A stretch of 64,000 nt of DNA from Escherichia phage CMS-2020a. The notes below the pieces were generated by a model. The model had not been told where the DNA came from. It ran no database searches and worked only from the letters and a program-made list of their open reading frames with translations. A program made the translations under genes and the position numbers. The DNA lies in the sequence record CP054387.1. One strand, written 5' to 3'. This document shows, piece after piece, positions 30,089 through 48,484 of this stretch (positions within the stretch are counted from its first letter, which is position 1; each line of letters opens with the position of its first letter).

Positions 30089-30979
30089 TTATGCCGGTAA
30101 AGCAATTTCTAACGGTTTATCCAAAGGTTGTTTGTCGAATGCCAGCAATGGCAGCGTGTCAGGCAGTCGACGACCAAAGTCAGGGTTTCGATACACACCA
30201 TACAACGGAGACGTAAAGCTCAGGTTGTGAATGTCCTTGAGCAGCTTCACAATGCTGGCCTCGTCCACCAGACTGTCGGCAATGTCCTGAATCGTCGTGC
30301 CACGATTCCGCCCAGCTTTTGCCAGGGAACTGTTCTTGTGGTAGTCCGCCACCAGATCACGCAGTGCACGGCGACGACGAGACTCGCTCATTGCGAACAA
30401 CTCTTTGACGATCGCCTCGTTATCACCCGTGTCGGAACGGAAATGGCGCTGGAATACACGCAGTGCACTTTCATAGCTCTTCGGTCGCTCAGGGCGGATG
30501 AACTTAAACCCTGCTTTCATGGCGAAGGGATTGTATTTGCTCATCGAGGACTGGATCTCAATGATTGGCCGGTCATGCATCCTGCTAACCAGGTTAATCA
30601 TTCGATAAGAGACGCCTACGCCACGATACTGAGTATCCACAACTGAGCGACTGATCACCGCAAAGTTGTTATTCACGTACCGACCCCAGTACTGGTTAGC
30701 CACGGTGGTATTAGTGGTTGGTTTCAACTTAGGAAACATGCGGTGGCGAGGTGCCAACAGTAGTTTCGGGTAAGCCATAACCACGACGCCCACCAGACGA
30801 TCATCAAGTTCGCAGCGATAGTAAGTTGGCGCGAAAGGTTTGCCGTCTGTTTTGTAGTGAAGCGACTTAAGAGCGTGCCAGTCCTCTACAGTTCCCTTTG
30901 TAACAGTCATTCGCTCCAGAAAGTCCAGATGACGCGGAAACTCTTCAGGGCGGTAGCGTTTAATGATGATGTCCGTCAT
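30089..30979 (-). CDS. GNAT-fold acetyltransferase-like protein with C-terminal extension
   Basis: 296 aa; VVDTQYRGVGVSYRMINLV fits GNAT motif A (R/Q-x-x-G-x-G); YNPFAMKAGFKFI fits motif B; overlaps ABC ATPase gene by 4 nt. Confidence 0.5.
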   Translation of the reverse strand: MTDIIIKRYRPEEFPRHLDFLERMTVTKGTVEDWHALKSLHYKTDGKPFAPTYYRCELDDRLVGVVVMAYPKLLLAPRHRMFPKLKPTTNTTVANQYWGRYVNNNFAVISRSVVDTQYRGVGVSYRMINLVSRMHDRPIIEIQSSMSKYNPFAMKAGFKFIRPERPKSYESALRVFQRHFRSDTGDNEAIVKELFAMSESRRRRALRDLVADYHKNSSLAKAGRNRGTTIQDIADSLVDEASIVKLLKDIHNLSFTSPLYGVYRNPDFGRRLPDTLPLLAFDKQPLDKPLEIALPA

Positions 30980-31641
30980 AAATGGACCTCATCATGACTA
31001 CCATTGTGATATTCCACCTTCACGCGTTCTTTGTAGTGCTTGGTGATCTGCATATCCGGGCGCAGCGCGTTCTTCAGGTCTTCGTGAGTCGTCGCCACCA
31101 TTACCGTCGCACCAACCTTTCGAGCGGCACGCTGGAGGTTAGATGCCACAACCTGAGCGGTTACACGGTCTAGAACAGCACCGAACTCGTCAGCAGCCCA
31201 CACTTTAGCGCCTGACTCAATCAGTTTGGCAATCTTGAGACGATATTTCTGGCCGTCTGACATTTCAGAAGGCTTGCGAACAAACAGATATGCATCGTTC
31301 AGACCAGCCATAGATAACAACCCAAGCGCATCGCTGGTCGTTTTGCCCAACTGATCGATGACGTTAACCTCATTATCGAAGGTAAAATCATCGATGGAGG
31401 CTACAGACAGCCCTTCATCCTTCATCTGTCGTTGCAACTCGCGCAGCACAACGGATTTGCCGGAACCGGATTGGCCGGTGATGTACACCACATCGCCCTG
31501 CTTCACTTCCAGCTCCAGATTGTCGTAAAGCGTCCACTCTTTTTCGTCCAGGCCAAGCCCGAACGACTCAGCGATTTCCAACGTGCGCGTGGTTTTATTT
31601 ACGCGTGTCTGAAACGATACGTTGATGTTGTATTTGCTCAT
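30976..31641 (-). CDS. ABC-type ATPase (stand-alone nucleotide-binding domain)
   Basis: 221 aa; Walker A GQSGSGKS, signature-like SDGQKYRL, Walker B VWAADEFG, H-loop ATTHE. Confidence 0.8.
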   Translation of the reverse strand: MSKYNINVSFQTRVNKTTRTLEIAESFGLGLDEKEWTLYDNLELEVKQGDVVYITGQSGSGKSVVLRELQRQMKDEGLSVASIDDFTFDNEVNVIDQLGKTTSDALGLLSMAGLNDAYLFVRKPSEMSDGQKYRLKIAKLIESGAKVWAADEFGAVLDRVTAQVVASNLQRAARKVGATVMVATTHEDLKNALRPDMQITKHYKERVKVEYHNGSHDEVHL

Positions 31642-32306
31642 GCAGCCATCTCCCCGGAAGAGATCTTCTCCGCATATGCCACAAATGCGTCTACCCCGCT
31701 TTCTCCCGTCATTTCTTCCATATGGGCAAGCAAATCACCAACAACAATGGCAGAGCCAGCAGGGAGAGTTTTAAAGCCCAATACGTCGACAACACGTACT
31801 TCTTCCGCTGCAACTTCACGACTGATCTCGGTGTGTTCATCCTTCTGTCGTTTAGTTTCTTCGCTAAGATCGATAACTAGCGAGTCGGTGTCCATTTCTT
31901 CTGTCATACTGCCAACGAGAACATTCAACTCACGCTCTTCAAAGCCGAAAACCTCGATATCGTCCAGAACAAGCGACTCAAGCTCTTTCTGTAGCTTAAT
32001 TGCATCGTAATCAATGCTGGCAAGTCGGTTATCTTCAAGGCGCTTCGCACGAACCTCGTCATCACTGAGATCATCGCGAACAATAACCGGTACACGCTCA
32101 AGTCCAGCAAAAATTGCAGCCTCACGGCGGCCGTGGCCAGTAATAATTACGTCGTTCTTATCGACCGTAATTGGCTGGTCAAATCCGCGCTTTTTAATGG
32201 CTGCGGCCAGATCTCTGATCTGCTGTTCATCATGCTTTTTGGCATTCATCTCATAGGGAATAAGATCTGCCGGGTCGCGATATACGATTTCAAACTTTTT
32301 GGTCAT
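31638..32306 (-). CDS. ParB-like nuclease domain protein 1
   Basis: Start at ATG 32306 (AAGGAG upstream, TAATG overlap with upstream stop); IITGHGRREAAIFAGLERVPVIVRD matches ParB/Srx GxxRxxAA box. Confidence 0.7.
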   Translation of the reverse strand: MTKKFEIVYRDPADLIPYEMNAKKHDEQQIRDLAAAIKKRGFDQPITVDKNDVIITGHGRREAAIFAGLERVPVIVRDDLSDDEVRAKRLEDNRLASIDYDAIKLQKELESLVLDDIEVFGFEERELNVLVGSMTEEMDTDSLVIDLSEETKRQKDEHTEISREVAAEEVRVVDVLGFKTLPAGSAIVVGDLLAHMEEMTGESGVDAFVAYAEKISSGEMAA

Positions 32307-33004
32307 TACATACGCTCCTTGTAGTAGTCGACCAGCCACACTAGAGCCTCACCAGCGTTTTCCATTTCATTGCCAGTATTAATTGCCTGGTCTTTGATGA
32401 TGTTTTTTATGGTTTCTGCAACGCGATCTGACGCATCGAAGGTTACTTTGAAGCGCATGGTCTGATGTTCCGCACCGACACGTTCGGTTTTCTCTCGTTT
32501 GTCGGTATCGACAGGCTCATCACTACCACGAGACAACGCCTCCAGTGCTTCAAGGTCGATTGCCGCCTCTTTTGCTAAAACCATCGAGATTTCGTCGTCA
32601 TACGGGGCGATTTCAGACAGTTGATAGTCAAGTTCTGACTGAATTTCTTCAATGAAGCGTTGCAATGCGATTTGGTCGTCTTCACCGTATCGCTCGTTGT
32701 CCACCAGTGACATCTGTTTTGCCACGACATCGCTAATTTTGCCCACAGAAAGCACAGGAACCGTTGAAATTCCTTGCTCAATAGCAGCACGCCAGCGATG
32801 TTCGCCGCCGAGGATTTCAAAAAATCCATCTTCAAGCTCACGAGCCAAAATTGGCTTAAAAAAGCCCAATTTTTCGATAGAACCTTTCAGTTTTTCGAAA
32901 TTCTGCGCACCAACCGAATTGGTGTTCCAGGTATTCGGGCGAAGGTTGGCAACATCAACCTGCAAAATCGTGATTTTTACGTCCATTTTATTGCTACAAT
33001 CCAC
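32306..33004 (-). CDS. ParB-like nuclease domain protein 2
   Basis: 232 aa (start ambiguous, GTG 33004 or ATG 32986); ILGGEHRWRAAIEQGISTVPV is a ParB-type motif. Confidence 0.7.
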   Translation of the reverse strand: MDCSNKMDVKITILQVDVANLRPNTWNTNSVGAQNFEKLKGSIEKLGFFKPILARELEDGFFEILGGEHRWRAAIEQGISTVPVLSVGKISDVVAKQMSLVDNERYGEDDQIALQRFIEEIQSELDYQLSEIAPYDDEISMVLAKEAAIDLEALEALSRGSDEPVDTDKREKTERVGAEHQTMRFKVTFDASDRVAETIKNIIKDQAINTGNEMENAGEALVWLVDYYKERM

Positions 33005-36175: not shown

Positions 36176-36790
36176 TTGGATTATCATGATATGAAAATGA
36201 AACTTTCGTTACTCCTTGCTTGCATATACCTCCCGGCGTTTTCCGCCAACGCATTATCAGATTTCGTCTCTGACATGCAAAAAACGTACAGCATGTTTAC
36301 CTCCGAAGACGTAGTAGAATACAAATCACGAGGTCTGAATCAGCCAGTTTGGTTCAGATTCTCAGACAACGCAGAAGAAACAATACTTAATGGAGGAAAA
36401 GAAAGATTACGGTTGCAAATTAACGGGACCGCTGTACCAGAAAACGTTAATGTAAGCTCTGACGAAGCCATGAAGCCATCTGGAATTGTTTTAGAAGTTC
36501 AAGACGGCACACTTTACTGTGATGAAATGGCTACAACAGGTTGCCAAGTAAACATTAGGGTTGGCAATGAAGACCCTATCGTTACTTACGCCAAGGCTGA
36601 AGGGAATACAAGTGGAAAGGTATTGTTTATCGATGAAAATACCTCAAAACGTATCGTTCGTGACATACAGAAAACAGCGAACTCTAAATCCGTCGATAAA
36701 AAAATCTATGTTGAGGTTCCCTTCTTTGTCGTTGGTAACAAAGAATTTAAATTTGGGTTGCTGAAAACACCTCTAAGAGTATCAGAATGA
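36176..36790 (+). CDS. hypothetical secreted/periplasmic protein
   Basis: N-terminus MKMKLSLLLACIYLPAFSANA looks like a Sec signal peptide with AxA-type cleavage region. Confidence 0.55.
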   Translation: MDYHDMKMKLSLLLACIYLPAFSANALSDFVSDMQKTYSMFTSEDVVEYKSRGLNQPVWFRFSDNAEETILNGGKERLRLQINGTAVPENVNVSSDEAMKPSGIVLEVQDGTLYCDEMATTGCQVNIRVGNEDPIVTYAKAEGNTSGKVLFIDENTSKRIVRDIQKTANSKSVDKKIYVEVPFFVVGNKEFKFGLLKTPLRVSE

Positions 36791-37311
36791 GAACATTGGA
36801 CATCACCTACGGCATACCGGCTGAAGTATGGCCGCGAGACTACGAACATGCTGAACGTACCTTGCTCTTCTGGCGGAAAGCTAAATTTCCTGTCAGAGTC
36901 ACACTTGAAGATGGTCAGGTGTTTTGCATGTATGTGCAGGGAACAATGTCTTCCCGCAACAAGCTAGATTTATGTCCAGCACCGCTTGATAATGACAATC
37001 GTATAAGACTCCCACTTGAGCGCATTAGTACAATTGAATCAGGTGTCATTGATGGCATTGCTTACGATTTCAAAGGGAGACTAACAATACATCCTGACTA
37101 TGTAGATAACCAGCCATCACGTCGTGACTTTTTTAAGATATGTCGTCAGGCTTACCAAAACGGCAAATCTATAAGGGTCTACATGGCAGACGGTCGCGAA
37201 ATTGAGGGAACGTCAGATGGTGTTGACGCCTGTCTAGTCACACTTAAGTTGGAGGACGGTAGAAAAATACTTATTTTCTTCGATTGGGTTGAACGAATCC
37301 TTCCGTTCTAA
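36787..37311 (+). CDS. hypothetical protein with two similar beta-rich halves
   Basis: 174 aa; internal duplication-like segments VRVTLEDGQVFCMYVQG and IRVYMADGREIEGTSDG; overlaps upstream stop by 4 nt. Confidence 0.5.
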   Translation: MRTLDITYGIPAEVWPRDYEHAERTLLFWRKAKFPVRVTLEDGQVFCMYVQGTMSSRNKLDLCPAPLDNDNRIRLPLERISTIESGVIDGIAYDFKGRLTIHPDYVDNQPSRRDFFKICRQAYQNGKSIRVYMADGREIEGTSDGVDACLVTLKLEDGRKILIFFDWVERILPF

Positions 37312-37599: not shown

Positions 37600-38250
37600 A
37601 TGGCTAACATTATCATTTCTAAAAAGTCTATCATTGAAGCTGCATCTATTGTATCCGACGAGCTGCGCGAAAAAGCAGATCTGGCAACTCAAACATATAA
37701 CGAACATTATAAAAATGGCACGCACACTAAAGCAGACAAAGCAAATATGCAAGCTGCGACCACTAAACTTGCTTACTTCATCAACAACGTCGTAAACGCA
37801 GTAGAAGACGAAAAATTATGCTCTGTTTTCTACTATGCGATTAAAGCAAGCAAACAAGCGCCAGAAGTATTTTTCCGTGATGCAATGACTAATAGTTATT
37901 CACTGGAAAAACTGGTTTATCTGGTTAAATCAATTAAATCTGGTAAATGCGTTTATTCCATCGCTGATATGTCTGGATCTCGTGTATTTGCTTTAATCGA
38001 TATGATTAACGACGAGATCGACACGTTCACCAATGGCGCTGTTTTCGATTTAATGAATGAAGCTAAAAAAGCGTGTGAGATTAAATTGGACGCTGGCTAT
38101 ACTCAAGCCAACCAGTTGATCAATCTTTGCGAACGTCTTGGACTTGTTGAAAAAGTCAAAGGAGCTGGGATCGCAAAAGCTGGTACTCAGCAATATCGCT
38201 TCATTAAAAATGATTTCTACAATTATTTAGCTGACGCTTTCAAAGCGTAA
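37600..38250 (+). CDS. hypothetical protein
   Basis: 216 aa ORF with AT-rich promoter-like region upstream, no recognised motif. Confidence 0.5.
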   Translation: MANIIISKKSIIEAASIVSDELREKADLATQTYNEHYKNGTHTKADKANMQAATTKLAYFINNVVNAVEDEKLCSVFYYAIKASKQAPEVFFRDAMTNSYSLEKLVYLVKSIKSGKCVYSIADMSGSRVFALIDMINDEIDTFTNGAVFDLMNEAKKACEIKLDAGYTQANQLINLCERLGLVEKVKGAGIAKAGTQQYRFIKNDFYNYLADAFKA

Positions 38251-38760: not shown

Positions 38761-38785
38761 GCGCCCACTATGGGCGCTTTTTTCG
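38761..38785 (+). terminator. rho-independent terminator
   Basis: gcgccca-cta-tgggcgc hairpin followed by TTTTTT; the same palindrome occurs at 38264..38280; a second hairpin plus T-run follows at 38805..38830 (acgcgcc-aatgat-ggcgcgt TTTTTA). Confidence 0.75.
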
Positions 38786-39369
38786 TTTCCAATACACCTA
38801 CCATAACGCGCCAATGATGGCGCGTTTTTATTGTCTTTAACTCACTCCAACAACATAAAAATAAGCGCCAAAATAACGCCATAGACGCGCTTTTATATCC
38901 TTGTCAGTACATACCCATTACTTAACACATTAACGCGCTTAAAACACGTTATATTGCGCTATAGAGTATGGTTAATCATTGGCTTTTAGTCTTGCTATGT
39001 GATCCGCGTTTATTTGTCGGCGCGGATCGGCATTTTGTTTTGTTCCGTATCCGCTCGCGTATTATGTGCGCGTGATTTTTCACATAATCACACCACTTAA
39101 TCACGTATGCGATTACGCTACGAAAGAAATCTGGATGTCTCAGGCGACGAAAGTCATCATAATTTTCCCCGCTCACCTGTCCGACAACCGCTGGTTGGAT
39201 TCCACCAGCTTCCCGATGTTTTTTCTACATAAAGGCGAATGCAGCCGTTTCCCGAAAAAATCCTGGCCGTTCCCCGTCGGTTCATGAATACGTTCCTCGC
39301 CGTTTCTGAAAATTTCCCTGCGGCATCTGGTGGCTATAGAGAAAGGGCCGTTACTGGCCCTCTTCTCAG

Positions 39370-39852
39370 TTACACGCCATCAAGGATGTGGATGCGGTTG
39401 CTTGCGTATACATTCAGCATAAAGTTAGCGCAAAACAGTTTCCATGTATCAACGCCAGCGGTATACGTAATGTTTTTGCATTTAATTGCATTGTTGGCGA
39501 TCCGCATCCCCTGCGATACTGCTTCATCGTCGGAAAATTTGAACGACGATTGAGTTTTAATCCAGACAGAAATCTGCGTAGCGAACTCAATCAGCTTGGA
39601 CTGGCAGAATCGCCCGGAGCGCACCGGAAAGACGAACGTTCCGAATCCAGAATTTACCACATACGCTTTCTCAAATACCCGCGAGTAACGACGATTGCCA
39701 ATGATGTCGCGTGCAATAATGCATTTTTCTTGTGCTGACAGTTCTACCGTCTCATTGTCGCGCCATGCACCAAGTACTCGTTTTTCAATGTCAGAGAACG
39801 TTACAGCGATATTGCCATGTGCGGGTGCGTTTACAGTAGCGATAAAATTCAT
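39370..39852 (-). CDS. hypothetical protein
   Basis: 160 aa ORF, no recognised motif. Confidence 0.45.
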   Translation of the reverse strand: MNFIATVNAPAHGNIAVTFSDIEKRVLGAWRDNETVELSAQEKCIIARDIIGNRRYSRVFEKAYVVNSGFGTFVFPVRSGRFCQSKLIEFATQISVWIKTQSSFKFSDDEAVSQGMRIANNAIKCKNITYTAGVDTWKLFCANFMLNVYASNRIHILDGV

Positions 39853-39938
39853 GATTAATTCCTTATCGTAAATAACAAATTGTTTTCTTGTTGGCGTTAA
39901 TTATCGTTGTACGAATAAGGCGTCAAAGTGGAAAGTTG

Positions 39939-40027
39939 CGGTAGCCGGACGGGAACAGGTGGGTTTGTCGGTTGCCTGGAGGTAAGAGGTTGGTGTTTTT
40001 AGCCTGCGGGAAACAGGATGGTCATTT
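39939..40027. repeat. iteron-like tandem direct repeats (about 31 bp, 3 units)
   Basis: cggtagccggacgggaacaggtgggtttgt / cggttgcctggaggtaagaggttggtgttttt / agcctgcgggaaacaggatggtcattt; related units at 43454..43517. Confidence 0.55.
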
Positions 40028-40202
40028 AAGGCCACCAGCAGTGGTGGCCTTAATAATTATCGACCGATTACGCTAAGGATCTTTTCCTCAACTGATTTGT
40101 TGTTGCGACTAAACTGCCTTGCGTATCTGATGACAGAAGAGGCGTTTTGCTTTCTGACTATCTCGGCTCTTTCCTTCAGGCGTTTCTTGAAATCGCCCAT
40201 AT

Positions 40203-40577
40203 TTACCACCAGGCGCAGAAGGTCAGTCTGTTATTGTGAAAGTCGTGGTTCTTAATCAGCTCTTCCACAAGTTTTTTCAACTCCCCCACGTCATGCCAGT
40301 ACCCTTCATCGTACTCCTGACTGCCGAAGAAAAAACCTTCACAGGTAGGTAAGTACTCTTCGCAGTTACTTTCGTTCATGTGCATCAAATGAGCTTTCAG
40401 AGCACAAATGTCATTCATCGTTAATTCTAAAAGCTCACAATTTTTGACTTCACCTACGTTGCGTTCCATCCACCCAAAGAGAGCATTGAACTTACGGAAG
40501 TAAGCAACCTTCTTTCTGGATGCATCGTTATTCAGATCGTTTTTTGGTTGCGTCTCAATGTAGATATCAAGTCCCAT
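40203..40577 (-). CDS. hypothetical protein
   Basis: 124 aa ORF. Confidence 0.45.
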   Translation of the reverse strand: MGLDIYIETQPKNDLNNDASRKKVAYFRKFNALFGWMERNVGEVKNCELLELTMNDICALKAHLMHMNESNCEEYLPTCEGFFFGSQEYDEGYWHDVGELKKLVEELIKNHDFHNNRLTFCAWW

Positions 40578-40695
40578 GATGGTTTCCTTATCAAGTTGCT
40601 TTCAGTGAAAGCATTTTCACAAATCAGATAAGGCAGAAAACAAATTGTTATCGGGCATAAGAAAATGGCGCGGTTTACGCGCCATTCAAAGAGGA

Positions 40696-41091
40696 TTAAG
40701 CGAATACGCTTTCAGGGATTAAGGTGTCAGCAGGAATGCCGGAGGTAATGCGCAGACCATACTGACCAATCCAGGTAGTGTTAGTGTTCAGACTGGAAGC
40801 GAATACGGTGTTAACCATATTCATCATGGTTTCAAACACCTCTTTATTCACCTTACGGAAGTAACTTTCAATTTTCAACAACAACGGGTCCGTTGCATCA
40901 AAAATGGACTGATATTGCGCCTCATATTCCCCGCCTGATGTATCTCCTTTACGCACAATAGTACTTGCCTGAACTTCAGTTCCAGTTTCGGTGTTGTACG
41001 TAACGACGGTGATTTTAGCTACATTCTTACCTTCGGCGCTTTCTGAAGCATAGTAGACATCAACTGTCAGGTTTTCTCGTTTAACGCTCAT
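40696..41091 (-). CDS. hypothetical protein
   Basis: ORF 40696..41103 with probable start at internal Met (MSVKRENL). Confidence 0.45.
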   Translation of the reverse strand: MSVKRENLTVDVYYASESAEGKNVAKITVVTYNTETGTEVQASTIVRKGDTSGGEYEAQYQSIFDATDPLLLKIESYFRKVNKEVFETMMNMVNTVFASSLNTNTTWIGQYGLRITSGIPADTLIPESVFA

Positions 41092-41216
41092 ATCACTCTC
41101 CATAGTGTCTTGGTTATTTTTCTATTTTATAGACATAGGTATGTACTTACAATACAAAAAACCCCGTAAGGATGGCGGGGCTGTCGTACTGTCGACTAAT
41201 TACCACTTGCACATTA

Positions 41217-41528
41217 TCAGGCTATTGCCATCACTGATGCTCTCTGAATCTCTTGCTGGGCCACGCGGTTAACTTCCATCAAAGCCAGTTCGAGCTGATG
41301 TTCCGGCCACATTCTTTGAAATGCCATCCAGCCTTTTCCACGCTGGCGACGAACATTCATTACATAACGAGTAAAGGTGTTTTTATCGAAAGACACCGCT
41401 GTTTCACGGAACAGACGAATAGAGGTTCCATTGGCAACGATGTCCAGCAAAGTTAATTGAGCAACCAGTGCAGGCTTCTCTTTTCTCTTCTGGTCTTTGT
41501 CCAGACCAAGAACCAATGATTTTTTCAT
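41217..41528 (-). CDS. hypothetical protein
   Basis: ORF 41217..41558, probable start MKKSLVLGL; palindromic motif and 30-bp repeat directly upstream. Confidence 0.45.
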   Translation of the reverse strand: MKKSLVLGLDKDQKRKEKPALVAQLTLLDIVANGTSIRLFRETAVSFDKNTFTRYVMNVRRQRGKGWMAFQRMWPEHQLELALMEVNRVAQQEIQRASVMAIA

Positions 41529-41682
41529 CACAACTCCGTAAACAACTTGTTTTCTCAATGGCGTAAATAATACCAGTAAGAAAACGGCTACAAAGCATAT
41601 TGATCAGGCGCATGAGCGATATGCAGGTTCTTCCCTGCGGCTACAGATGAAGTTAAGCCAGCAATGCTGGCTTTGGTTGGGC

Positions 41683-42012
41683 TTACGCGAATATCGCAAG
41701 GAAGTCCTGAACGTCCCAATGCTGGACGAGGTGAAGATAGACCTTAGAAATCACGTCATTTTCGCTATCGCATGTGAAGTAGTACTTCTGGCTGCGGTTG
41801 TATGTGTCCACACAAAATTCGCTCATATCCATAAAGTCAGCATCTTCACCCATGTCGCAAATCATCAAAGCAGGTGCGTCATCACGAGTCATCAGCTCCA
41901 GCACCCATCTTGAATTAATCAGAGTGGAAGACCAACCTTCCAGCTCATAAAACTGGTCAAACTCTTTTTGAGTCAATTTCTTAATTTGGTTGATGTCGAT
42001 ATTTGCAAACAT
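41683..42012 (-). CDS. hypothetical protein
   Basis: Start ATG 42012 with AAGGA 8 nt upstream (MFANIDINQ...). Confidence 0.45.
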   Translation of the reverse strand: MFANIDINQIKKLTQKEFDQFYELEGWSSTLINSRWVLELMTRDDAPALMICDMGEDADFMDMSEFCVDTYNRSQKYYFTCDSENDVISKVYLHLVQHWDVQDFLAIFA

Positions 42013-42122
42013 AAAGCAATCCTTAAACATGTTGTTTTCTGAATTACGTAAACAATACCAGTAAGAAAACGGCCACAAAGTATATCGTTACGGTGCTACG
42101 CTGCCCCGAGGTTAATAGCGAC

Positions 42123-42147
42123 AAAAGCCACCGTGCTGGTGGCCTCA
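42123..42147 (-). terminator. rho-independent terminator candidate
   Basis: Hairpin gccacc-gtgct-ggtggc followed on minus strand by TTTTGT, just after stop of 42151..42369. Confidence 0.5.
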
Positions 42148-42150
42148 CTC

Positions 42151-42369
42151 TTAATCTTGGTCGTCCGGGAACTCGCTGTGTACCGCGCCCACCAGCTCCC
42201 GCTTTTCATCTTCACTCAGCAGGTGCCAGATATCCTTCCCTTTGGGCGATTCCCCTTCTGCCGGGACGAACGACCACAACTTGCGGTACAACTCCGGCCC
42301 CACTGCATCCAGACACTCAGCCAGGGAATCCACGCCCCACACCTCAACCGTCACAGGCATCTTAATCAT
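42151..42369 (-). CDS. hypothetical small acidic protein
   Basis: 72 aa, GAGGA RBS upstream, visibly higher GC than neighbours. Confidence 0.45.
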   Translation of the reverse strand: MIKMPVTVEVWGVDSLAECLDAVGPELYRKLWSFVPAEGESPKGKDIWHLLSEDEKRELVGAVHSEFPDDQD

Positions 42370-43020
42370 CTCTTCATCCTCACTTCGTTTCTATAACGTC
42401 TAAATATGCTGTTTACTTGTTGGTGTTATTATCGCAATAAGATAAAGGCGAAAAAGGATTTTATGTCGGGAAAGCCAGGCTGGGCAGTGAATATCCGGGA
42501 ACGACACGAGAGCCAGTATTTACGATATTCTGCTCTACGCGCGCCGCGGGGCTGGTGGGTAGAATAATCCTCTCCCCGAAAACCTACTGAAATCGATTGT
42601 GACCCGCTGGCTGTCTGGCACAATTACGCTGTATCTGGCATTCAGAGGGAATCCAGCGGTAAGCAAGTCAGCCTGCACGTGAGCGCCTCTCTTCTTCCCG
42701 CACATTACAGGTGGGTAGCTGCAACTCTCTCGCTATACCGGTACGCCGCCGTTCCTGAACCGGCATCGAGCCTTTTCCCGAAATCCACACAGGCAACTCG
42801 ACCGTTTCCCTGAAAATCCCCAGCCGTTTCTGTAGCGTATGCAACCTTTTCTCTGTATGGACCGAAGGCTGACCGTAGGGGTGTTACGGGGGGTGATGGT
42901 AAGATGTTGAATAAATACGAAAAAGGAGGCGACACACCTCCTTCCCTCTCCACTTATACATACCTGGCTTCTTCGCTATACATGTTGTGTTTTATCTGTC
43001 TCAACCTCTCTATAGGCGTT

Positions 43021-43760
43021 AATGCTCACTCCTTCCAGAATGTTCTATACGGCGACTATTTCTGTTGGTGAATTGGGTGTGTTGTTTTCTCTGTCGGTGT
43101 ATGTGGTTTCGTTAGTTTTGCGGTGGTTCTTCTATGGGGGTGTTCTCGTCGTTTTGGTGATTGTTCTTCTCCGTGTATGGAGTAATGGCAGGTGGGCGAT
43201 TGCTTTCGTTATTGTGTTTGAGTTGTTTGTCTGGAGTGTGTGAAGGCTTTTGTAGTTATTCGTGTATTGGGTAATGGCGTTTCCCGTGATTGTTATGTTT
43301 CGTGTCTTTTGGGATTGAGAGAAACCTTGCGGTTACAGGCTTCGTTAGGGTTTCAGCGGTTCAGGTGTTTCTTCGCTGTTTGGGTAATGGCGTGTCGTGG
43401 GTATCGCGCGTATGAATGTTTTCGGATTGCCTGTGAAAGTTAGGTTGGTTGTCCGGTAGCCTGGGGAGAAGAGGTGGGTCTTTTCGGTAGCCTGCCATAA
43501 AGAGGTTGGTTGTTTTGGGTAATGGCATATGTGTTATTTGGTTGTTTTGTTATGCCTGAAAATAAGTTGTTTATATGGTTGTGTAACGCAACGGGAGCGA
43601 TTTTGAGCGTGTGTTTTTGTTGGTAGTGTGTTGAGTCGTCTGTGGTGAAATTTGGACGCTGTGGCGCTATCTGCTGCGTAGAATTACGGGTATAAGAAGT
43701 GATGTGTGATAACGTCAATTTTTTAGACCAAATCGGGAGAAAGCGTTGATGTTTCGTTGA
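43021..43760 (+). other. strand-asymmetric GT-rich non-coding tract with short repeats
   Basis: Plus strand strongly enriched in G and T; GGGTAATGGC at 43269, 43382, 43517 and a variant at 43180; only low-complexity ORFs. Confidence 0.5.
43454..43517. repeat. iteron-like tandem direct repeats (2 units of ~32 bp)
   Basis: ccggtagcctggggagaagaggtgggtctttt / cggtagcctgccataaagaggttggttgtttt; same family as 39939..40027. Confidence 0.55.
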
Positions 43761-43910
43761 TCTGTTATTTAGTTGTTTTCTTATTGGTATAAACAACCAT
43801 AACCTATTGATATTTAATGATGTGATTGCTGGTATGGGAGGGTAGTAGTGGCGATCAACGGGTTCTTATAGAAAAGAATCAAATTGTGACCGCCATTATC
43901 AACGGTTTGA

Positions 43911-44096
43911 TTAGATGAGATGGTCTAATTCATCATCTATCATGGCTTTGACGCTGGAGTCGTTCACTCCATATTTATTTATGAGCTGTTTCAGCTCTGT
44001 CGAAAACTGAAGGTAGATATCGTGAGCGTTTTTCACTGTAGGTTCAACGCCACTCATTTCAAGCGCCTTTAGTAGATATGAGTCTTCTTTAAGCAT
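43911..44096 (-). CDS. hypothetical small protein (uncertain)
   Basis: 61 aa ORF downstream of 44133..44432. Confidence 0.3.
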   Translation of the reverse strand: MLKEDSYLLKALEMSGVEPTVKNAHDIYLQFSTELKQLINKYGVNDSSVKAMIDDELDHLI

Positions 44097-44593: not shown

Positions 44594-46627
44594 TTACTTA
44601 ACCTGGTGGCCAGGTTTAGCACCAGCATCCGGGCTTAACAGGAAGATATCTTTCCCGCCAGGACCGGCAGCCATCACCATGCCTTCAGAGATACCGAAGC
44701 GCATTTTACGTGGTGCCAGGTTAGCCACCATAATGGTGTGACGACCAATCAGTGCCTGTGGATCTGGATAAGCGGAACGGATGCCTGAGAAGACATTACG
44801 CTTTTCACCACCGAGATCCAGCGTCAGGCGAAGCAGTTTGTCAGAACCTTCGACAAACTCCGCGTTTTCAATCAGCGCCACACGCAGGTCAACTTTGGCG
44901 AAGTCGTCAAAGGTGATGGTTTCCTGAATCGGTTCGTCAGCCAGTGGGCCAGTTACCGGTGCAGCTGTGGCTTTCACTTCTTCTTTGGATGCTTCCACCA
45001 GTGCTTCCACCTGTTTCATATCGATACGGTTATACAGTGCCTTGAACGGATTCACTTTATGGCCCAGAAGCGGTTGCTGGATACCATCCCAGGTCAGTTC
45101 TGTATTCAGGAATGCTTCTGCACGTTCAGTCAGTTTCGGCAGTACCGGTTTCAGGTACGTCATCAGCACGCGGAACAGGTTAATGCCCATAGAGCAAATC
45201 GCCTGCAGATCTGCATCGCGACCTTCCTGCTTCGCCACCACCCACGGAGCCTGTTCATCGACATAGCGATTAGCCAGGTCAGCCAATGCCATGATTTCAC
45301 GGATAGCTTTACCAAATTCGCGGCTTTCCCATGCTTCGCCAATCACTTCAGCGGCATCAGTAAAGGTTTTGTACAGTTGCGGGTCAGCCAGTTCGCTTGT
45401 CAGCACGCCGTCAAAACGCTTGTTGATAAAGCCTGCATTACGGGAGGCCAGGTTAACCACTTTGTTCACGATATCGGCATTCACGCGCTGAACGAAATCT
45501 TCCAGGTTGAGATCGATATCATCAATGCGCGAAGAGAGTTTCGCAGTGTAGTAGTAACGCAGGCTGTCAGCGTCAAAATGATTCAGCCAGGTGCTGGCTT
45601 TAATAAAGGTGCCGCGAGACTTGGACATCTTCGCGCCGTTCACCGTCACATAGCCGTGAACAAACAGGTTGGTCGGCTTGCGGAAGTTGCTGCCTTCCAG
45701 CATGGCAGGCCAGAACAGACTGTGGAAGTAAACGATATCTTTGCCGATGAAGTGGTACAGCTCGGCGGTGGAGTCTTTCTTCCAGTATTCGTCGAAGCTT
45801 ACGCTGTCGCCGCGCTTGTCGCACAGATTCTTGAAAGAACCCATGTAGCCAATCGGCGCGTCCAGCCAGACGTAGAAATATTTGCCCGGCGCGTTCGGAA
45901 TTTCAAAACCGAAGTAAGGGGCGTCGCGGGAGATATCCCACTGTTGCAGGCCAGATTCAAACCACTCCTGCATTTTATTTGCCACCTGCTCCTGCAACGC
46001 ACCGCTGCGGGTCCATGCCTGCAACATTTCGCTGAAAGAGGGCAGATCAAAGAAGAAGTGTTCAGAATCACGCATTACCGGCGTAGCGCCAGAAACCACC
46101 GATTTCGGCTCGATCAGTTCAGTCGGGCTGTAGGTCGCGCCGCAGACTTCGCAGTTATCGCCGTATTGATCCGGGGATTTACATTTCGGGCAGGTGCCTT
46201 TTACAAAACGGTCCGGCAGGAACATGCATTTTTCCGGATCGTACAGCTGTGAGATGGTGCGGTTTTTAATAAAACCGTTTTCTTTCAGGCGAGAGTAGAT
46301 AAGCTCGGACAACTGACGGTTCTCTTCGCTGTGCGTCGAGTGATAGTTGTCATAGCTGATGTTAAAGCCTGCGAAATCAGTCTGATGTTCCTGACTCATT
46401 TCGCCAATCATCTGTTCCGGTGTGATACCAAGCTGCTGTGCTTTCAGCATGATTGGCGTACCGTGGGCATCGTCGGCACAGATGAAATTAACCTCGTGGC
46501 CGCGCATTCGCTGGTAACGAACCCAGACATCAGCCTGGATGTGCTCCAGCATATGGCCGAGGTGGATTGAGCCGTTAGCGTACGGCAGCGCGCACGTCAC
46601 CAGAATTTTCTTCGCGACTTGGGTCAT
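44594..46627 (-). CDS. metG: methionine--tRNA ligase
   Basis: Translation from internal Met ([48 protein letters not shown]...) matches enterobacterial MetRS as I recall it, including HLGH and KMSKS motifs and C-terminal tRNA-binding domain; ORF-track N-terminal extension rejected. Confidence 0.97.
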
Positions 46628-46784
46628 AGTAGGCATTACTTCTTTGTAGTGAAAAGGGGCTTGATAGTAACAAAATGGCCTTATGTCTGCCATGTGATAA
46701 CAGCATTTCTCATAAATGATTAAATGTCGTAGCTGGAGTACACTACAAGGCGACAATTGCGCAAATTAAAATAAAGGAGACGGG

Positions 46785-47885
46785 ATGAGCGAGTCCAAAT
46801 CGCCGGATGCCCTGAGAGCAATGGTAGCCGGTACGCTGGCTAATTTTCAGCACCCAACCCTGAAACACAACTTGACTACGCTTAAAGCGTTACACCATGT
46901 TGCGTTGATGGATGACACACTGCATGTCGAACTAATCATGCCTTTCGTGTGGAATAAGCCTTTTGAAGACCTGAAAGAGCAATGTAGTGGTGATCTGCTC
47001 CGTATCACTGGCGCAAAGGCTATTGACTGGAAGCTGTCGTACAACATTGCCACGCTTAAGCGCGTCAAAAACCAACCAGGCATTAATGGCGTTAAGAACA
47101 TTATCGCCGTCAGCTCAGGCAAGGGCGGCGTGGGTAAATCCTCCACAGCAGTAAACTTGGCACTGGCTTTGGCTGCTGAAGGTGCGAAAGTTGGTATTTT
47201 GGATGCCGATATCTATGGTCCATCAATTCCAACCATGCTGGGCGCGGAAAACCAACGTCCAACCTCACCGGACGGTACTCACATGGCACCTATCATGTCT
47301 CATGGCCTGGCAACCAACTCTATTGGTTATCTGGTCACCGATGACAATGCAATGGTGTGGCGTGGACCGATGGCGAGCAAGGCGCTGATGCAGATGTTGC
47401 AGGAAACACTGTGGCCTGATCTGGACTATCTCGTTCTCGATATGCCACCGGGCACTGGTGATATTCAATTGACGCTGGCGCAGAACATTCCTGTAACTGG
47501 TGCGGTTGTGGTAACTACGCCGCAAGACATCGCGCTGATCGATGCGAAGAAAGGCATTGTGATGTTCGAAAAAGTCGAAGTGCCGGTACTGGGTATCGTT
47601 GAAAACATGAGTGTGCATATTTGCAGTAACTGCGGTCATCACGAGCCAATTTTTGGCACCGGTGGAGCACAGAAACTGGCCGAGAAATACAACACGCAGT
47701 TGTTAGGCCAAATGCCACTTCATATCTCTCTTCGTGAAGATCTGGATAACGGAACACCAACCGTTATTAGTCGTCCAGATAGCGAATTTACGGCTATTTA
47801 TCGTGACCTCGCAGATCGCGTTGCTGCCCAAATGTATTGGCAAGGTGAAGTAATACCTGGCGAAATCGCATTCCGCGCAGTGTGA
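46785..47885 (+). CDS. apbC: Fe-S cluster carrier ATPase ApbC/Mrp
   Basis: 366 aa; P-loop SSGKGGVGKSSTAVNLA, CxxC motif HICSNCGH; divergent from metG as in enterobacterial chromosomes. Confidence 0.95.
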   Translation: MSESKSPDALRAMVAGTLANFQHPTLKHNLTTLKALHHVALMDDTLHVELIMPFVWNKPFEDLKEQCSGDLLRITGAKAIDWKLSYNIATLKRVKNQPGINGVKNIIAVSSGKGGVGKSSTAVNLALALAAEGAKVGILDADIYGPSIPTMLGAENQRPTSPDGTHMAPIMSHGLATNSIGYLVTDDNAMVWRGPMASKALMQMLQETLWPDLDYLVLDMPPGTGDIQLTLAQNIPVTGAVVVTTPQDIALIDAKKGIVMFEKVEVPVLGIVENMSVHICSNCGHHEPIFGTGGAQKLAEKYNTQLLGQMPLHISLREDLDNGTPTVISRPDSEFTAIYRDLADRVAAQMYWQGEVIPGEIAFRAV

Positions 47886-48348: not shown

Positions 48349-48484
48349 TACATGAAAGAAGCTCACTCAGTGCAACTGATCGGTACATAGCACCAGACAA
48401 AGGAACGTTATTTTCTCGAACAAGAAAAGGTAGAAAACAAATTGTTTAAGGCCACAACTAGTGGCCTTAATGGAGAAGGGATGC

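What the first reader, a model, noticed from the sequence alone, without database searches (positions are those of the whole stretch)
38900..43760. Iteron-like 31-bp tandem repeats and a strand-skewed GT-rich tract flank a block of five unknown genes
Seen in sequence: tandem ~31-bp units cggtagcc(t/g)g-N-agaggt(t/g)ggt-N-tttt occur three times at 39939..40027 and twice at 43454..43517, on either side of minus-strand genes 40203..42369. Related short motifs (ccgtttcccgaaaa, ccgtttctg) appear in both non-coding blocks (about 39230..39300 and 42760..42840). The 43021..43760 tract is strongly G+T-rich on the plus strand with three copies of GGGTAATGGC. A 30-bp sequence aataccagtaagaaaacggc(t/c)acaaag is repeated upstream of two of the genes (41570 and 42055). 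Inference: replication-origin iterons, or the degenerate ends of a nested element carrying the five genes; the GT-rich tract could encode a structured RNA.
Basis: seen in the sequence. Interest (0 to 1): 0.55.

Follow-up and report, generated by a model that had tools for sequence, protein, structure and literature searches.

The report
Conserved repeat-rich non-coding module of phage-plasmids
The repeats and the G+T-rich tract are real and belong to one gene-free control region, conserved in more than 800 SSU5/pHCM2-type phage-plasmids of gut bacteria, that looks like a set of protein docking sites used in the virus's lytic programme; it is neither the plasmid's known replication origin nor a folded RNA.

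Summary
The window is an E. coli SSU5/pHCM2-type phage-plasmid (98.6% identical to phage PhiR41_1).

**Observation: confirmed.**
- The ~31-bp units are bipartite sites, GGTAGCCTG-N5-AAGAGGTKGGT.
- They occur only at 39940-40022 and 43425-43510 in the ~108-kb genome.
- The G+T tract is unique in the window.

**Conservation.**
- The whole architecture is kept in Salmonella, Klebsiella, Enterobacter and Cronobacter elements and in phage SSU5.
- Distant lineages carry lineage-specific unit variants that are shared by both blocks.

- RepA origin iterons: no. RepA and its 21-bp iterons lie ~35 kb away and are unrelated.
- Ends of a nested element: no. The blocks are direct repeats and synteny is fixed.
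- Structured RNA: no. The tract has no conserved fold, and its minus-sense RNA is the least structured in 64 kb.

**The tract itself** is non-coding, silent in lysogens, and carries a conserved leftward promoter-like element.

**Best reading (inferred).** This is a cis-acting DNA module of protein-binding arrays. The probable binder is an element-encoded protein, with the adjacent 216-aa winged-helix protein as best candidate. It would act in the lytic programme as a transcription-activated origin/enhancer or as an early-transcription control region.

I found no published description. Moderately interesting.

The parts
38909..38925 (-). Conserved block containing GTAATGGGTATGTAC, a possible inverted copy of the GTAATGG motif of the G+T tract
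   Evidence: It is among the best conserved columns of the left non-coding alignment and is also present in SSU5. In the window it shares only 7 nt with the right-hand motif, against 11 nt in Salmonella and Enterobacter. The link is therefore weak.
39244..39317 (+). Left array of ~22-bp-spaced repeats (GCCGTTTCCC-GAAAA type, core TTTC-N-GAAA), 3 copies, downstream of the 160-aa gene
   Evidence: period 23; D15. Strongly conserved in relatives.
39346..39366 (-). Terminator hairpin of the 160-aa gene
   Evidence: GGGCC-loop-GGCCC followed by a T run on the minus strand, read. Conserved.
39370..39852 (-). Orphan 160-aa protein gene (phrog_1641)
   Evidence: - PHROG E-value 7e-97, no Pfam or PADLOC hit.
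- AlphaFold2 pLDDT 92.
- Only 20 clusters at 50% identity among 1.84 billion proteins.
- Moderately expressed in Cyrano lysogens.
39872..39927 (-). Promoter and operator module of the 160-aa gene: -35 TTTGAC (39922-39927), 16-nt spacer, -10 GATAAT (39900-39905), palindrome GAAAACAATTTGTT (39874-39887)
   Evidence: The hexamers are conserved and the spacer is free in 50 relatives. The palindrome family gives 28 hits against 3.8 expected.
39939..40027 (+). Left array of three ~30-bp bipartite units, at about -45 to -135 of the 160-aa gene promoter
   Evidence: In SSU5 the same units sit in a divergent, untranscribed spacer.
40028..40052 (-). Hairpin (GGCCACC...GGTGGCC) containing a Chi octamer on the minus strand (40032-40039)
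40057..42369 (-). Six small genes of unknown function (50, 124, 135, 113, 131 and 72 aa). At least five have their own terminator or trailing hairpin, and five are preceded by a copy of the promoter/palindrome module
   Evidence: ORFs. PHROG families of unknown function. Modules at 40636, 41541, 42026 and 42410. Terminators read.
42551..42558 (+). Chi octamer conserved in relatives
42748..42866 (+). Right array of five ~22-bp-spaced repeats (GCC(G/T)TTTCCC; 6 copies in Salmonella)
   Evidence: (D15).
42920..42946 (-). Terminator-like hairpin at the end of the predicted leftward transcript
   Evidence: The flanking TTCGTATTTATTCAA is conserved even in the Serratia-type locus L112. The stem itself is less well kept in Salmonella and Klebsiella.
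42930..43040 (+). C+T-rich stretch (purine-rich on the minus strand) next to the G+T tract
   Evidence: C+T at least 0.70 over 80 nt in all 24 representatives, and 0.89 over ~300 nt in L101.
43040..43700 (+). G+T-rich (minus-sense C+A-rich) non-coding tract
   Evidence: - Composition (minus strand A 0.40, C 0.32, G 0.13, T 0.15).
- No conserved ORF; 137 of 217 gaps are not multiples of 3.
- Found in 836 plasmids.
- Least structured RNA of the window.
- The annotated ORF CYRAN_103 is at floor expression.
43181..43526 (+). Four RGTAATGGC motifs (43181, 43270, 43383, 43518), each preceded by a TTCTCCGTGT-like half; 3-6 copies in relatives
   Evidence: (D7).
43425..43517 (+). Right array of bipartite units (one degenerate, two consensus)
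   Evidence: Two or three copies in relatives.
43558..43583 (.). Copy of the genome-wide palindrome GAAAA(C/T)AA-N-TTGTTT inside the tract
   Evidence: (I3).
43690..43718 (-). Conserved promoter-like element reading leftward into the tract: TTGACG (43713-43718), 17 nt, TTATAC (43690-43695)
   Evidence: Present at the same place in 26 of 26 diverse relatives with invariant 17-nt spacing and variable spacer sequence. The -10 is weak. No transcription start site data exist.
43741..43903 (.). Five CGTTGAY motifs (43741, 43752 forward; 43713, 43853, 43897 reverse) around the least stable 60-bp A+T-rich segment of the region (43750-43830), plus the conserved GGCGATCAACGG..TTCTTATAGAAA block

Best explanation
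The 31-bp units, the 22-bp repeats, the GTAATGGC motifs and the G+T-rich tract belong to one conserved, gene-free, cis-acting DNA module. It is characteristic of SSU5/pHCM2/pKpn-type phage-plasmids.

**Layout.** It consists of two paralogous blocks in the same orientation.
- **Block A** surrounds an orphan 160-aa gene. The 22-bp repeats lie downstream of that gene. The bipartite units lie at about -45 to -135 of its promoter.
- **Block B** is a ~1-kb stretch without genes. In minus sense it reads: a conserved but weak sigma-70-like promoter, then ~650 nt of C+A-rich sequence carrying the units and the GCCATTAC motifs, then a purine-rich stretch, then a hairpin, then five 22-bp repeats.

**What is shown.**
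- The elements are real, non-coding and under selection.
- They are not RepA iterons.
- They do not form a conserved RNA fold.
- The unit sequence co-varies between the two blocks across lineages.

**What is inferred.**
- The units are DNA sites for one element-encoded sequence-specific protein. The best candidate is the always-adjacent 216-aa coiled-coil plus winged-helix protein.
- Block B acts in the lytic programme, because it is silent in lysogens.
- Leftward transcription opens a region whose strands and transcript cannot fold.
- Most likely this is a transcription-activated second (lytic) origin or replication enhancer, with Block A as its partner site.
For: **Reality and specificity**
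- Four unit hits against 0.00 expected, and none elsewhere in the genome.
- Half-sites are conserved and the 5-nt spacer is free across 84 distinct instances. The pattern search biases this result.

**Conservation**
- Both blocks are present, in the same order and orientation, in Salmonella, Klebsiella, Enterobacter and Cronobacter plasmids, in 89 IMG/VR stretches and in phage SSU5.
- The tract is found in 836 PLSDB plasmids.
- Counts of the tract against the terminase gene by genus: Escherichia 224 vs 206, Enterobacter 90 vs 91, Salmonella 49 vs 49, Citrobacter 25 vs 25, Cronobacter 9 vs 10, Shigella 7 vs 7.

**Co-variation between blocks**
- L101 has 36-bp units with ..TTTGGGTGGT in both blocks.
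- L111 has AACACCAYTC.. in both blocks.
- L112 has ..CTCAGGC in both blocks.

**DNA level rather than RNA level**
- In SSU5 and several contigs the left units lie between divergent genes, upstream of both predicted promoters.
- Structure conservation index is at most 0.25.

**Non-coding**
- No conserved ORF, and indels are mostly not multiples of three.
- The tract is not a decayed copy of the 160-aa gene.

**Promoter**
- TTGAC(G/T)-17-TTATA(C/T) is present in 26 of 26 relatives.

**Silent in lysogens**
- CYRAN_103 is at the expression floor (supplement of PMC9928086).

**Structure-free strands**
- Minimum free energy is -4 to -6 kcal/mol per 120 nt, against a mean of -27.5.
- The C+T-rich neighbouring stretch is conserved.

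**Candidate binder**
- Its gene is adjacent in every lineage examined.

**Need for another origin**
- The element encodes its own Pol III alpha, primase and helicase.
- Its RepA origin is elsewhere.
Against: - There is no experimental evidence of replication, binding or transcription from this region.
- There are no conserved DnaA boxes or IHF sites. The A+T-rich segment is modest.
- Unit spacing is 28-31 bp in most lineages, 36 bp in L101 and 54 bp in its right block. Helical phasing is therefore not conserved.
- The predicted -10 lacks the canonical -11A/-7T pattern.
- Cumulative GC skew of the whole genome follows gene orientation and shows no origin signal here.
- The choice of the 216-aa protein as binder rests only on adjacency, fold and co-occurrence. 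The 160-aa protein (29% identity in L101) and the FljA-like protein (25%) diverge faster and could also fit.
- Concerted evolution of the two blocks by gene conversion would also give the co-variation.
Confidence: 0.4

Rival explanations
1. Early-transcription control leader or insulator. The conserved leftward promoter makes a long, untranslated, C-rich, G-poor, unstructured RNA, which is an ideal Rho loading substrate. Transcripts from the promoter, or read-through from the variable cargo locus on the right, are therefore attenuated before the hairpin at 42920-42946. The repeat arrays are operator or roadblock sites that tune this, and they separately regulate the 160-aa gene promoter.
For: - Minus-strand composition is C 0.32 and G 0.13 over ~670 nt.
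- The tract holds the least structured windows of the 64 kb.
- A promoter-like element is conserved in 26 of 26 relatives.
- There is a terminator-like hairpin.
- A copy of the genome-wide operator palindrome lies inside the leader.
- The module sits at the border of the variable cargo region. All resistance-gene insertions of SSU5-like elements are reported to lie in one locus (PMC9600943), but I did not check that it is this locus.
- The left units lie directly upstream of a promoter.
- The tract is silent in lysogens.
Against: - A rut region needs composition, not near-invariant motifs kept across genera.
- It does not explain the 22-bp arrays placed after the terminators in both blocks, or the purine-rich stretch.
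- Rho dependence is untested.
Confidence: 0.3
2. RNA-level system. The tract encodes a long unstructured regulatory RNA that sponges an RNA-binding protein through the repeated GCCAUUACCC and ACCCACCUCUU..CAGGCUACCG motifs. Alternatively, the tandem units are a type III toxin-antitoxin-like antitoxin RNA for the adjacent 160-aa protein.
For: - Tandem 31-36-nt units lie directly upstream of a ~160-aa gene, as in ToxIN. In L101 there are 4 copies, two of them identical.
- The protein and the units both diverge fast: 29% identity in L101.
- Units persist where the gene is deleted (L074) or truncated (L102/L103). That is the asymmetry expected of an antitoxin.
- An FljA-family protein is encoded nearby. 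From my own knowledge, not checked here, FljA binds mRNA.
Against: - A conserved promoter lies between the units and the gene.
- In SSU5 the units are in an untranscribed divergent spacer.
- The gene upstream of the units is barely expressed in Cyrano while the 160-aa gene is on, and the tract ORF is at floor.
- Units within one array are only 64-75% identical.
Confidence: 0.1
3. Partition (centromere-like) or copy-control handcuffing sites for plasmid maintenance in the lysogen. They would be bound by an element-encoded protein and would pair plasmid copies or link the two blocks.
For: - There are several arrays of direct repeats in two clusters.
- No conventional parAB next to repA in the Cyrano annotation.
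- Two ParB_N proteins and an ATPase are encoded 10 kb away.
Against: - The 216-aa gene is at floor expression in lysogens.
- No ParA- or TubZ-type motor is linked to the region. The Mrp-like ATPase at 46785-47885 is host-type cargo next to metG and is not conserved in relatives.
- RepA iterons are unrelated.
Confidence: 0.08
4. One reading: iterons of the plasmid origin, degenerate ends of a nested mobile element carrying the small genes, or a structured RNA gene.
For: Repeat arrays flank a block of small genes. The tract has a strongly asymmetric composition.
Against: - repA with its own 21-bp iterons is ~35 kb away.
- All copies are direct, and synteny is fixed in hundreds of relatives.
- No Rfam hit and no conserved fold.
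Confidence: 0.04

Closest known systems
Two-site phage origins: P4 ori plus crr (alpha-protein iterons in two clusters 4.5 kb apart) and SPP1 oriL/oriR (G38P boxes). From my own knowledge.
   Same: The same asymmetric protein-binding repeats occur in two separated clusters on one replicon. They are outside a plasmid-type rep/iteron cassette, and the element brings its own replication proteins.
   Different: No initiator has been identified here, and replication has not been tested. The units are longer (25 bp, bipartite). One cluster lies in a 1-kb strand-asymmetric tract that has no counterpart in P4 or SPP1.
Transcription-activated or RNA-primed origins (ColE1 RNA II, T4 oriF/oriG R-loops, P1 oriL under C1 control). 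From my own knowledge.
   Same: A promoter that is silent in the lysogen reads into the candidate region. A purine-rich RNA segment would be made just before the iteron-like array. A UvsW-like helicase gene lies 9 kb away.
   Different: No folded primer RNA: the transcript would be structure-free. No initiator gene encloses the site, unlike repL in P1. R-loop formation is pure inference.
Plasmid iterons (RepFIB RepA of this same element)
   Same: Direct repeats at ~22-bp spacing with a conserved core and a variable remainder. They occur in arrays on both sides of a gene.
   Different: The sequence is unrelated to the element's true iterons (CTCTATAGTGGAT). There is no rep gene, no DnaA boxes and no GATC cluster: 8 GATC against 20.7 expected.
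Rho utilisation (rut) regions such as lambda tR1
   Same: C-rich, G-poor, unstructured, untranslated RNA downstream of a promoter.
   Different: It is about ten times longer than a rut site and is packed with near-invariant repeated motifs.
Type III toxin-antitoxin loci (ToxIN, AbiQ/antiQ, CptIN, TenpIN)
   Same: Tandem 31-36-nt repeats lie immediately upstream of a ~160-aa gene in a mobile element.
   Different: The protein fold is unrelated. A promoter lies between the repeats and the gene. The repeats are divergent, and in SSU5 they are not transcribed with the gene.
Promoter-stem-loop cassettes (PeSLs) of T4-type phages. From my own knowledge.
   Same: The 55-77-bp module repeated before the small genes (promoter plus palindrome, often next to a hairpin) flanks small ORFs in a plastic region.
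   Different: There is no sequence relationship. Here the palindrome GAAAACAA-N-TTGTTTTC is a genome-wide operator-like motif at about 16 sites.

Membership tests
Plasmid replication-origin iterons (Rep-dependent theta origin) | Arrays of 17-22-bp direct repeats in helical phase | tested here: inconclusive
   The CCGTTTCC family is spaced ~22 bp in both blocks. The 31-bp units are spaced 28-31 bp here, but 36 and 54 bp in L101.
Plasmid replication-origin iterons (Rep-dependent theta origin) | Adjacent rep gene whose product recognises the repeats | tested here: not met
   repA is ~35 kb away, outside the window. Its own iterons are CTCTATAGTGGAT at 21-bp spacing. No Rep-family domain was found in neighbouring proteins.
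Plasmid replication-origin iterons (Rep-dependent theta origin) | A+T-rich unwinding element with DnaA boxes or IHF site next to the iterons | tested here: not met
   One DnaA-box match in 5.3 kb, not conserved. IHF consensus sites occur only in the E. coli clade. The least stable segment, 43750-43830, is only moderately A+T-rich at 0.77.
Plasmid replication-origin iterons (Rep-dependent theta origin) | Supports autonomous replication or exerts incompatibility | not testable with these tools
   Needs cloning into an origin-less vector, with or without an induced helper element.
Type III toxin-antitoxin system | Toxin with the ToxN/AbiQ/CptN/TenpN endoribonuclease fold | tested here: not met
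   [not shown]
Type III toxin-antitoxin system | Near-identical tandem repeats transcribed with the toxin from an upstream promoter, with a terminator in between | tested here: not met
   Units are 64-75% identical. A conserved promoter lies between the units and the gene. In SSU5 the units lie in a divergent spacer.
Mobile element ends (transposon or nested element) | Inverted terminal repeats, target-site duplication, presence/absence among relatives | tested here: not met
   All units are on the + strand in every genome. Synteny is conserved in all relatives examined. No transposase or integrase lies in 38.9-43.9 kb.
Structured non-coding RNA | Match to a curated family, or conserved secondary structure with covariation | tested here: not met
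   No Rfam match at E up to 1 inside the 38.9-43.8 kb region; the three weak chance-level matches (E 0.27-0.64) lie at 38100-38163, 38767-38833 and 46237-46281. Structure conservation index is 0-0.25 in all 120-nt windows on both strands over 24 sequences. Minus-sense minimum free energy is -4 to -6 kcal/mol per 120 nt.
Rho-dependent terminator (rut) region | At least 80 nt of untranslated, C-rich, G-poor, unstructured RNA downstream of a promoter | tested here: met
   Composition, lack of a conserved ORF, lack of structure and an upstream promoter-like element. Only the sequence criteria are met.
Rho-dependent terminator (rut) region | Rho-dependent 3' ends in vivo | not testable with these tools
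   Needs Term-seq with and without bicyclomycin.
Decayed pseudogene | Residual protein homology or a frame-preserving substitution pattern | tested here: not met
   No tblastn or HMM similarity to the neighbouring 160-aa family: best E 0.098 (tblastn) and 0.89 (HMM profile). The longest stop-free frames change frame and strand between relatives, and 137 of 217 gaps are not multiples of 3. A search of the tract against all proteins was not run.

The most novel reading that the evidence does not exclude
Block B is a new kind of phage lytic origin. A lysogenically repressed promoter transcribes ~650 nt that can fold neither as RNA nor as displaced DNA (C+A only). This is followed by a G-cluster, purine-rich segment that forms a persistent RNA-DNA hybrid on the pyrimidine-rich template and primes the element's own Pol III-type replisome next to a 22-bp iteron array. 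A winged-helix/coiled-coil protein bridges this site to the partner array 3.5 kb away, in the manner of ori/crr. The UvsW-like helicase would later remove the R-loop.
Probability: 0.12. Interest if true: 0.8.

Novelty: new variant of a known kind. Interest (0 to 1): 0.55.

Why it matters
SSU5/pHCM2/pKpn-type phage-plasmids are common in clinical E. coli, Klebsiella, Enterobacter and Salmonella, including S. Typhi pHCM2, and they carry resistance genes. Apart from RepA, I found no published description of their cis-acting sites.

This module is as conserved as their core genes. It lies at the border of a region whose gene content differs between relatives, and it is mis-annotated as small 'hypothetical proteins' in GenBank records.

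If it is the lytic origin or the early-control switch, it would be:
- the handle for studying how these elements change from plasmid to phage replication;
- a target for curing or containing them;
- a useful marker for typing.

If it is only a transcriptional insulator, it is still a clean natural example of a long, selected, structure-free sequence.

Tried and rejected
1. **RepA iterons.** I located repA through the published Cyrano qPCR primers and read its flanks. The iterons there are unrelated.
3. **Deep profile search for the 160-aa family.** Only 20 clusters were found, with no link to known families. The genome-contig scan found only close relatives.
4. **Structured RNA.** Rfam and RNAalifold structure conservation index on a 24-sequence alignment were both negative.
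5. **Coding potential and pseudogene.** ORF conservation, indel phase, tblastn and HMM against six frames were all negative.
6. **Simple tandem-array origin of the G+T tract.** Autocorrelation shows no dominant period.
7. **Replication signal from cumulative GC skew of the stitched genome.** The skew only tracks gene orientation. The stitching was approximate.
8. **DnaA and IHF sites.** Not conserved.
9. **Fragment in large Klebsiella plasmids as a clue to a recombination site at the units.** The junction lies elsewhere in the tract and simply travels with the DUF262/RM cargo.
10. **Literature.** No paper in the library describes this region. One 2026 preprint on a phage-plasmid copy-number mechanism could not be opened.
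11. **Resemblance of half-site AAGAGGTG to a Shine-Dalgarno or anti-SD sequence, and of GGGTAATGGC to 16S rRNA.** Dropped, because the distant lineages do not keep these sequences.
12. **FljA target comparison with the fliC leader.** Not pursued. I had only my recollection of the sequence, and one literature search returned nothing directly usable.

Full report
**What the window is.** The 4.9-kb finding region is 98.6% identical to Escherichia phage PhiR41_1. It is 94% identical to phage Cyrano (pLF82). Weaker matches reach Klebsiella phage-plasmids and Salmonella phage SSU5. The window is therefore part of an SSU5/pHCM2-type phage-plasmid of about 108 kb. Public annotation of this stretch is entirely 'hypothetical protein'.

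**Check of the observation**

- **The ~31-bp units are real.** With the spacer counted correctly, the pattern GGTAGCCTG-N5-AAGAGGTKGGT gives four hits with up to 3 mismatches. These are at 39940, 39970, 43455 and 43486, all on the + strand, against 0.00 in shuffles.
  - Two more degenerate copies lie at 39998 and 43425.
  - No copy occurs in the other ~44 kb of the genome.
- **The CCGTTTCC-type motif** forms arrays at ~22-bp spacing: three copies at 39244-39317 and five at 42748-42866.
  - As a bare 10-mer it is not enriched. Its significance comes from clustering and conservation.
- **The G+T tract is confirmed.** G+T is 0.68-0.76, GC skew reaches +0.5 and AT skew reaches -0.58. It is the only such place in the 64 kb.
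- **GGTAATGGC** occurs three times exactly against 0.34 expected. A fourth, AGTAATGGC, lies at 43181.
- **The 30-bp repeat before two genes** is part of a 55-77-bp module.

**The small genes and their shared module**

Seven minus-strand genes lie between 39370 and 42369.
- All but the 50-aa ORF match PHROG families of unknown function. None has a significant Pfam or PADLOC hit.
- Five of them are preceded by a version of the same module: a -35/-10 pair followed by the palindrome GAAAACAA-N-TTGTTTTC, then the ribosome-binding site.
- The palindrome is a genome-wide motif, with 28 strand hits at about 16 intergenic sites against 3.8 expected.
- For the 160-aa gene, the hexamers TTTGAC/TTGGAC and GATAAT are conserved in about 50 distinct relatives while the 16-nt spacer varies. 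That is the signature of a real promoter.

**The long non-coding region is a conserved family feature**

- The interval 42380-43900 matches 838 plasmids of Klebsiella, Escherichia, Enterobacter, Salmonella, Citrobacter, Cronobacter and Shigella. Most records have no gene annotated there.
- The G+T tract alone matches 836 records. The terminase gene matches 961.
- Genus counts of tract against terminase:

| Genus | Tract | Terminase |
|---|---|---|
| Escherichia | 224 | 206 |
| Enterobacter | 90 | 91 |
| Salmonella | 49 | 49 |
| Citrobacter | 25 | 25 |
| Cronobacter | 9 | 10 |
| Shigella | 7 | 7 |

- Yersinia pMT1-type plasmids (62 terminase hits) and Acinetobacter elements (143) lack a detectable copy.
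- In a 24-sequence alignment, the ~1 kb from 42880 to 43880 is strongly conserved. Near-invariant blocks fall at the units, the GTAATGGC motifs, the palindrome and a promoter-like element.

**Not coding, not a folded RNA**

- The longest stop-free frames in the tract change frame and strand between relatives. Of 217 alignment gaps, 137 are not multiples of three.
- The 118-codon ORF annotated in Cyrano and PhiR41_1 starts with TTG and contains no methionine.
- The tract shows no residual similarity to the neighbouring 160-aa family.
- Rfam finds nothing.
- RNAalifold gives a structure conservation index of 0-0.25 in every 120-nt window on both strands.
- The minus-sense sequence of 43041-43320 gives the weakest folding energies in the whole window: -4 to -6 kcal/mol per 120 nt, against a mean of -27.5 and SD 6.9.
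- Minus-strand composition is A 0.40, C 0.32, G 0.13, T 0.15.
- Immediately downstream in minus sense, a purine-rich stretch (C+T at least 0.70 on the + strand) is conserved in all representatives. It expands to 0.89 over ~300 nt in the distant relative L101.
- Neither the transcript nor either separated DNA strand could form much secondary structure across roughly 800 nt.

**Not the plasmid origin**

- The published Cyrano repA primers (PMC9928086) are absent from the window. They map about 35 kb from the finding region in Cyrano.
- repA there is flanked on both sides by classic 21-bp iterons (CTCTATAGTGGAT) with DnaA-box-like TGTGGATAA and GATC clusters. These are unrelated to any repeat in the finding.
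- The finding region has no conserved DnaA or IHF sites and is GATC-poor.

**Architecture**

Read on the minus strand, both blocks have the same order: bipartite units, then about 650 bp, then a hairpin, then 22-bp repeats.
- **Block A.** The 650 bp are the 160-aa gene with its promoter. The units sit at about -45 to -135.
- **Block B.** The 650 bp are the C+A-rich tract with the GCCATTAC motifs.
- **Upstream of Block B** lies the element TTGAC(G/T)-17 nt-TTATA(C/T). It is present at the same position in 26 of 26 diverse relatives, with invariant spacing and variable spacer. The -35 is excellent and the -10 is weak.
- **Around it** are five CGTTGAY motifs and the least stable 60-bp segment of the region.
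- **Expression.** In the Cyrano RNA-seq table, the ORF covering the tract (CYRAN_103) is at the detection floor in lysogens. The 160-aa gene (CYRAN_111) and the FljA-like gene (CYRAN_114) are expressed. The 216-aa gene (CYRAN_113) is at the floor.

**Evidence that the units are DNA sites for a common factor**

1. Across 84 distinct instances the two half-sites are nearly invariant and the 5-nt spacer is free. The pattern search favours this outcome.
2. In SSU5 and several IMG/VR contigs, a small HTH-like gene is inserted divergently. The left units then lie between two divergent genes, upstream of both predicted promoters, and so outside either transcript.
3. Distant lineages keep the whole module but with their own unit variants, shared by both blocks.
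   - L101 (helicase 67% identical) has four 36-bp units, TTTGCCTGGCGGTAGCCGGAGGGTGTTTGGGTGGTA, before the 160-aa gene. It has ..CCGGTAGCC..TTTGGGTGGTG units in its G+T tract.
   - L111 and the Serratia-type L112 show the same behaviour with other variants.

Point 3 means either recognition by a co-evolving factor or gene conversion between the blocks.

**Candidate proteins**

- **160-aa protein.**
  - It gives a confident model (pLDDT 92) with no similar solved or viral fold.
  - It belongs to a tiny family of 20 clusters in 1.84 billion proteins.
  - It diverges fast: 29% identity in L101.
  - It is deleted in L074 and truncated in L102/L103, while the units persist. It is therefore dispensable for keeping them.
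- **FljA-family protein** (PF03614, E 9e-80). It also diverges fast: 25% identity in L101. It is not near the Serratia-type loci.
- **216-aa protein at 37600-38250.**
  - It is adjacent in every lineage examined.
  - It is at least 80% identical across the main genera, 63% in Serratia and 53% in L101.
  - It is my best candidate for the unit-binding protein, by inference only.

**Mechanism**

- **Shown:** a selected, non-coding, DNA-level multi-repeat module, duplicated in two blocks, with a conserved promoter-like element, silent in lysogens.
- **Inferred:** it acts in the lytic programme.
- **Most likely (about 0.3 within an overall 0.4 for the DNA-module-in-lytic-cycle reading):** it is a transcription-activated second origin or replication enhancer for the element's own replisome. 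That replisome includes Pol III alpha, primase and helicase. Block A would be a partner site, as in P4 ori/crr or SPP1 oriL/oriR (my own knowledge).
- **Nearly as likely:** a Rho-sensitive early leader or insulator at the border of the variable cargo locus. The two readings are not exclusive.
- **Weaker:**
  - RNA-level readings, including a type III toxin-antitoxin-like system, are weakened by the fold result, the promoter position, the SSU5 arrangement and the expression data.
  - A centromere role lacks a linked motor, and the candidate binder is not expressed in lysogens.

**Novelty**

I found no description of this region in the literature searched. It is best filed as a new variant of a known kind: iteron-like, cis-acting protein-binding arrays. 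It has one unusual feature, a long, conserved, structure-free, strand-asymmetric tract.

Noticed in passing
window 44594-47885: The cargo immediately right of the module is a full-length methionyl-tRNA synthetase (720 aa, PF09334, E 3e-165) placed divergently to an Mrp/ApbC-type P-loop ATPase (366 aa, PF10609, E 2e-102). This looks like a captured host metG-mrp segment. Relatives carry different cargo at this position, such as DUF262 plus a type I RM system, a GIY-YIG nuclease, or Ivy/LprI lysozyme inhibitors.
   Followed up: partly
window 36787-37311: A 174-aa protein of the FljA family (PF03614 'repressor of phase-1 flagellin', E 9e-80), with weak Hfq/LSm-like hits in its C-terminal part. 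It is expressed in Cyrano lysogens. Its target in the phage-plasmid is unknown. The leaders of the small genes (palindrome followed by AAGGA..ATG) may be its targets.
   Followed up: partly
window, about 16 intergenic sites (1585, 29659, 29684, 34642, 39874, 40636, 41541, 42026, 43558, 44447, 44495, 48433, 53553, 58099, 58828): The palindrome GAAAACAA-N-TTGTTTTC is a genome-wide operator-like motif, with 28 strand hits against 3.8 expected. It mostly lies at the transcription-start region of small genes. At 48433 and 53553 it is fused to a GGCCAC..GTGGCC hairpin. Its binding protein is unknown.
   Followed up: partly
window, 14 sites; five within 39202-42558: The Chi octamer GCTGGTGG is about ten-fold over-represented: 14 against 1.39 expected. 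Two copies sit inside hairpins that follow genes (40032, 42135). One at 42551 is conserved in relatives.
   Followed up: partly
[not shown]
   Followed up: yes
[not shown]
   Followed up: yes
window 43440-43796 (minus), 43022-43243 (plus), 42705-42953 (minus): ORFs annotated as hypothetical proteins in GenBank relatives fall in the non-coding tract. Examples are CYRAN_103, XSB42477/XSB42478, SSU5_108/109 and a PGAP call in pSARB26_01. They are not conserved as reading frames and are probably spurious.
   Followed up: yes
window 30089-33004: A minus-strand operon of two ParB_N-domain proteins (232 and 233 aa), an ABC-type ATPase (221 aa) and a 296-aa unknown protein. It lies between the terminase genes and a UvsW-like helicase and is conserved in L101. 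Its function is unknown: partition, packaging or DNA modification.
   Followed up: no
L074 4380-4520; L102 7240-7660: These are natural variants in which the 160-aa gene is deleted (L074) or truncated to 62 codons (L102/L103), while the upstream unit array is retained.
   Followed up: partly
L097 and L098 (Klebsiella plasmids of 193-204 kb), 5700-6500: About 800 bp of the G+T tract and its right flank, together with the DUF262 plus type I RM cargo, has been transferred into large IncFIB/IncHI1B Klebsiella plasmids. It is 96% identical to the SSU5-like Klebsiella element.
   Followed up: partly
window 43911-44096: A 61-aa ORF just right of the module has a weak, sub-threshold Pfam hit to T7 gp5.9, the RecBCD inhibitor (E 0.029, 14.7 bits). 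It is possibly chance, but worth noting given the Chi enrichment.
   Followed up: no
L108/L110 (NZ_UAVH01000011.1): A 108-kb contig labelled Yersinia pestis NCTC5923 encodes two homologues of the 160-aa protein (68% and 66% identity), although pMT1-type plasmids lack the tract in PLSDB searches. The contig may be an SSU5-type element or a mislabelled one.
   Followed up: no
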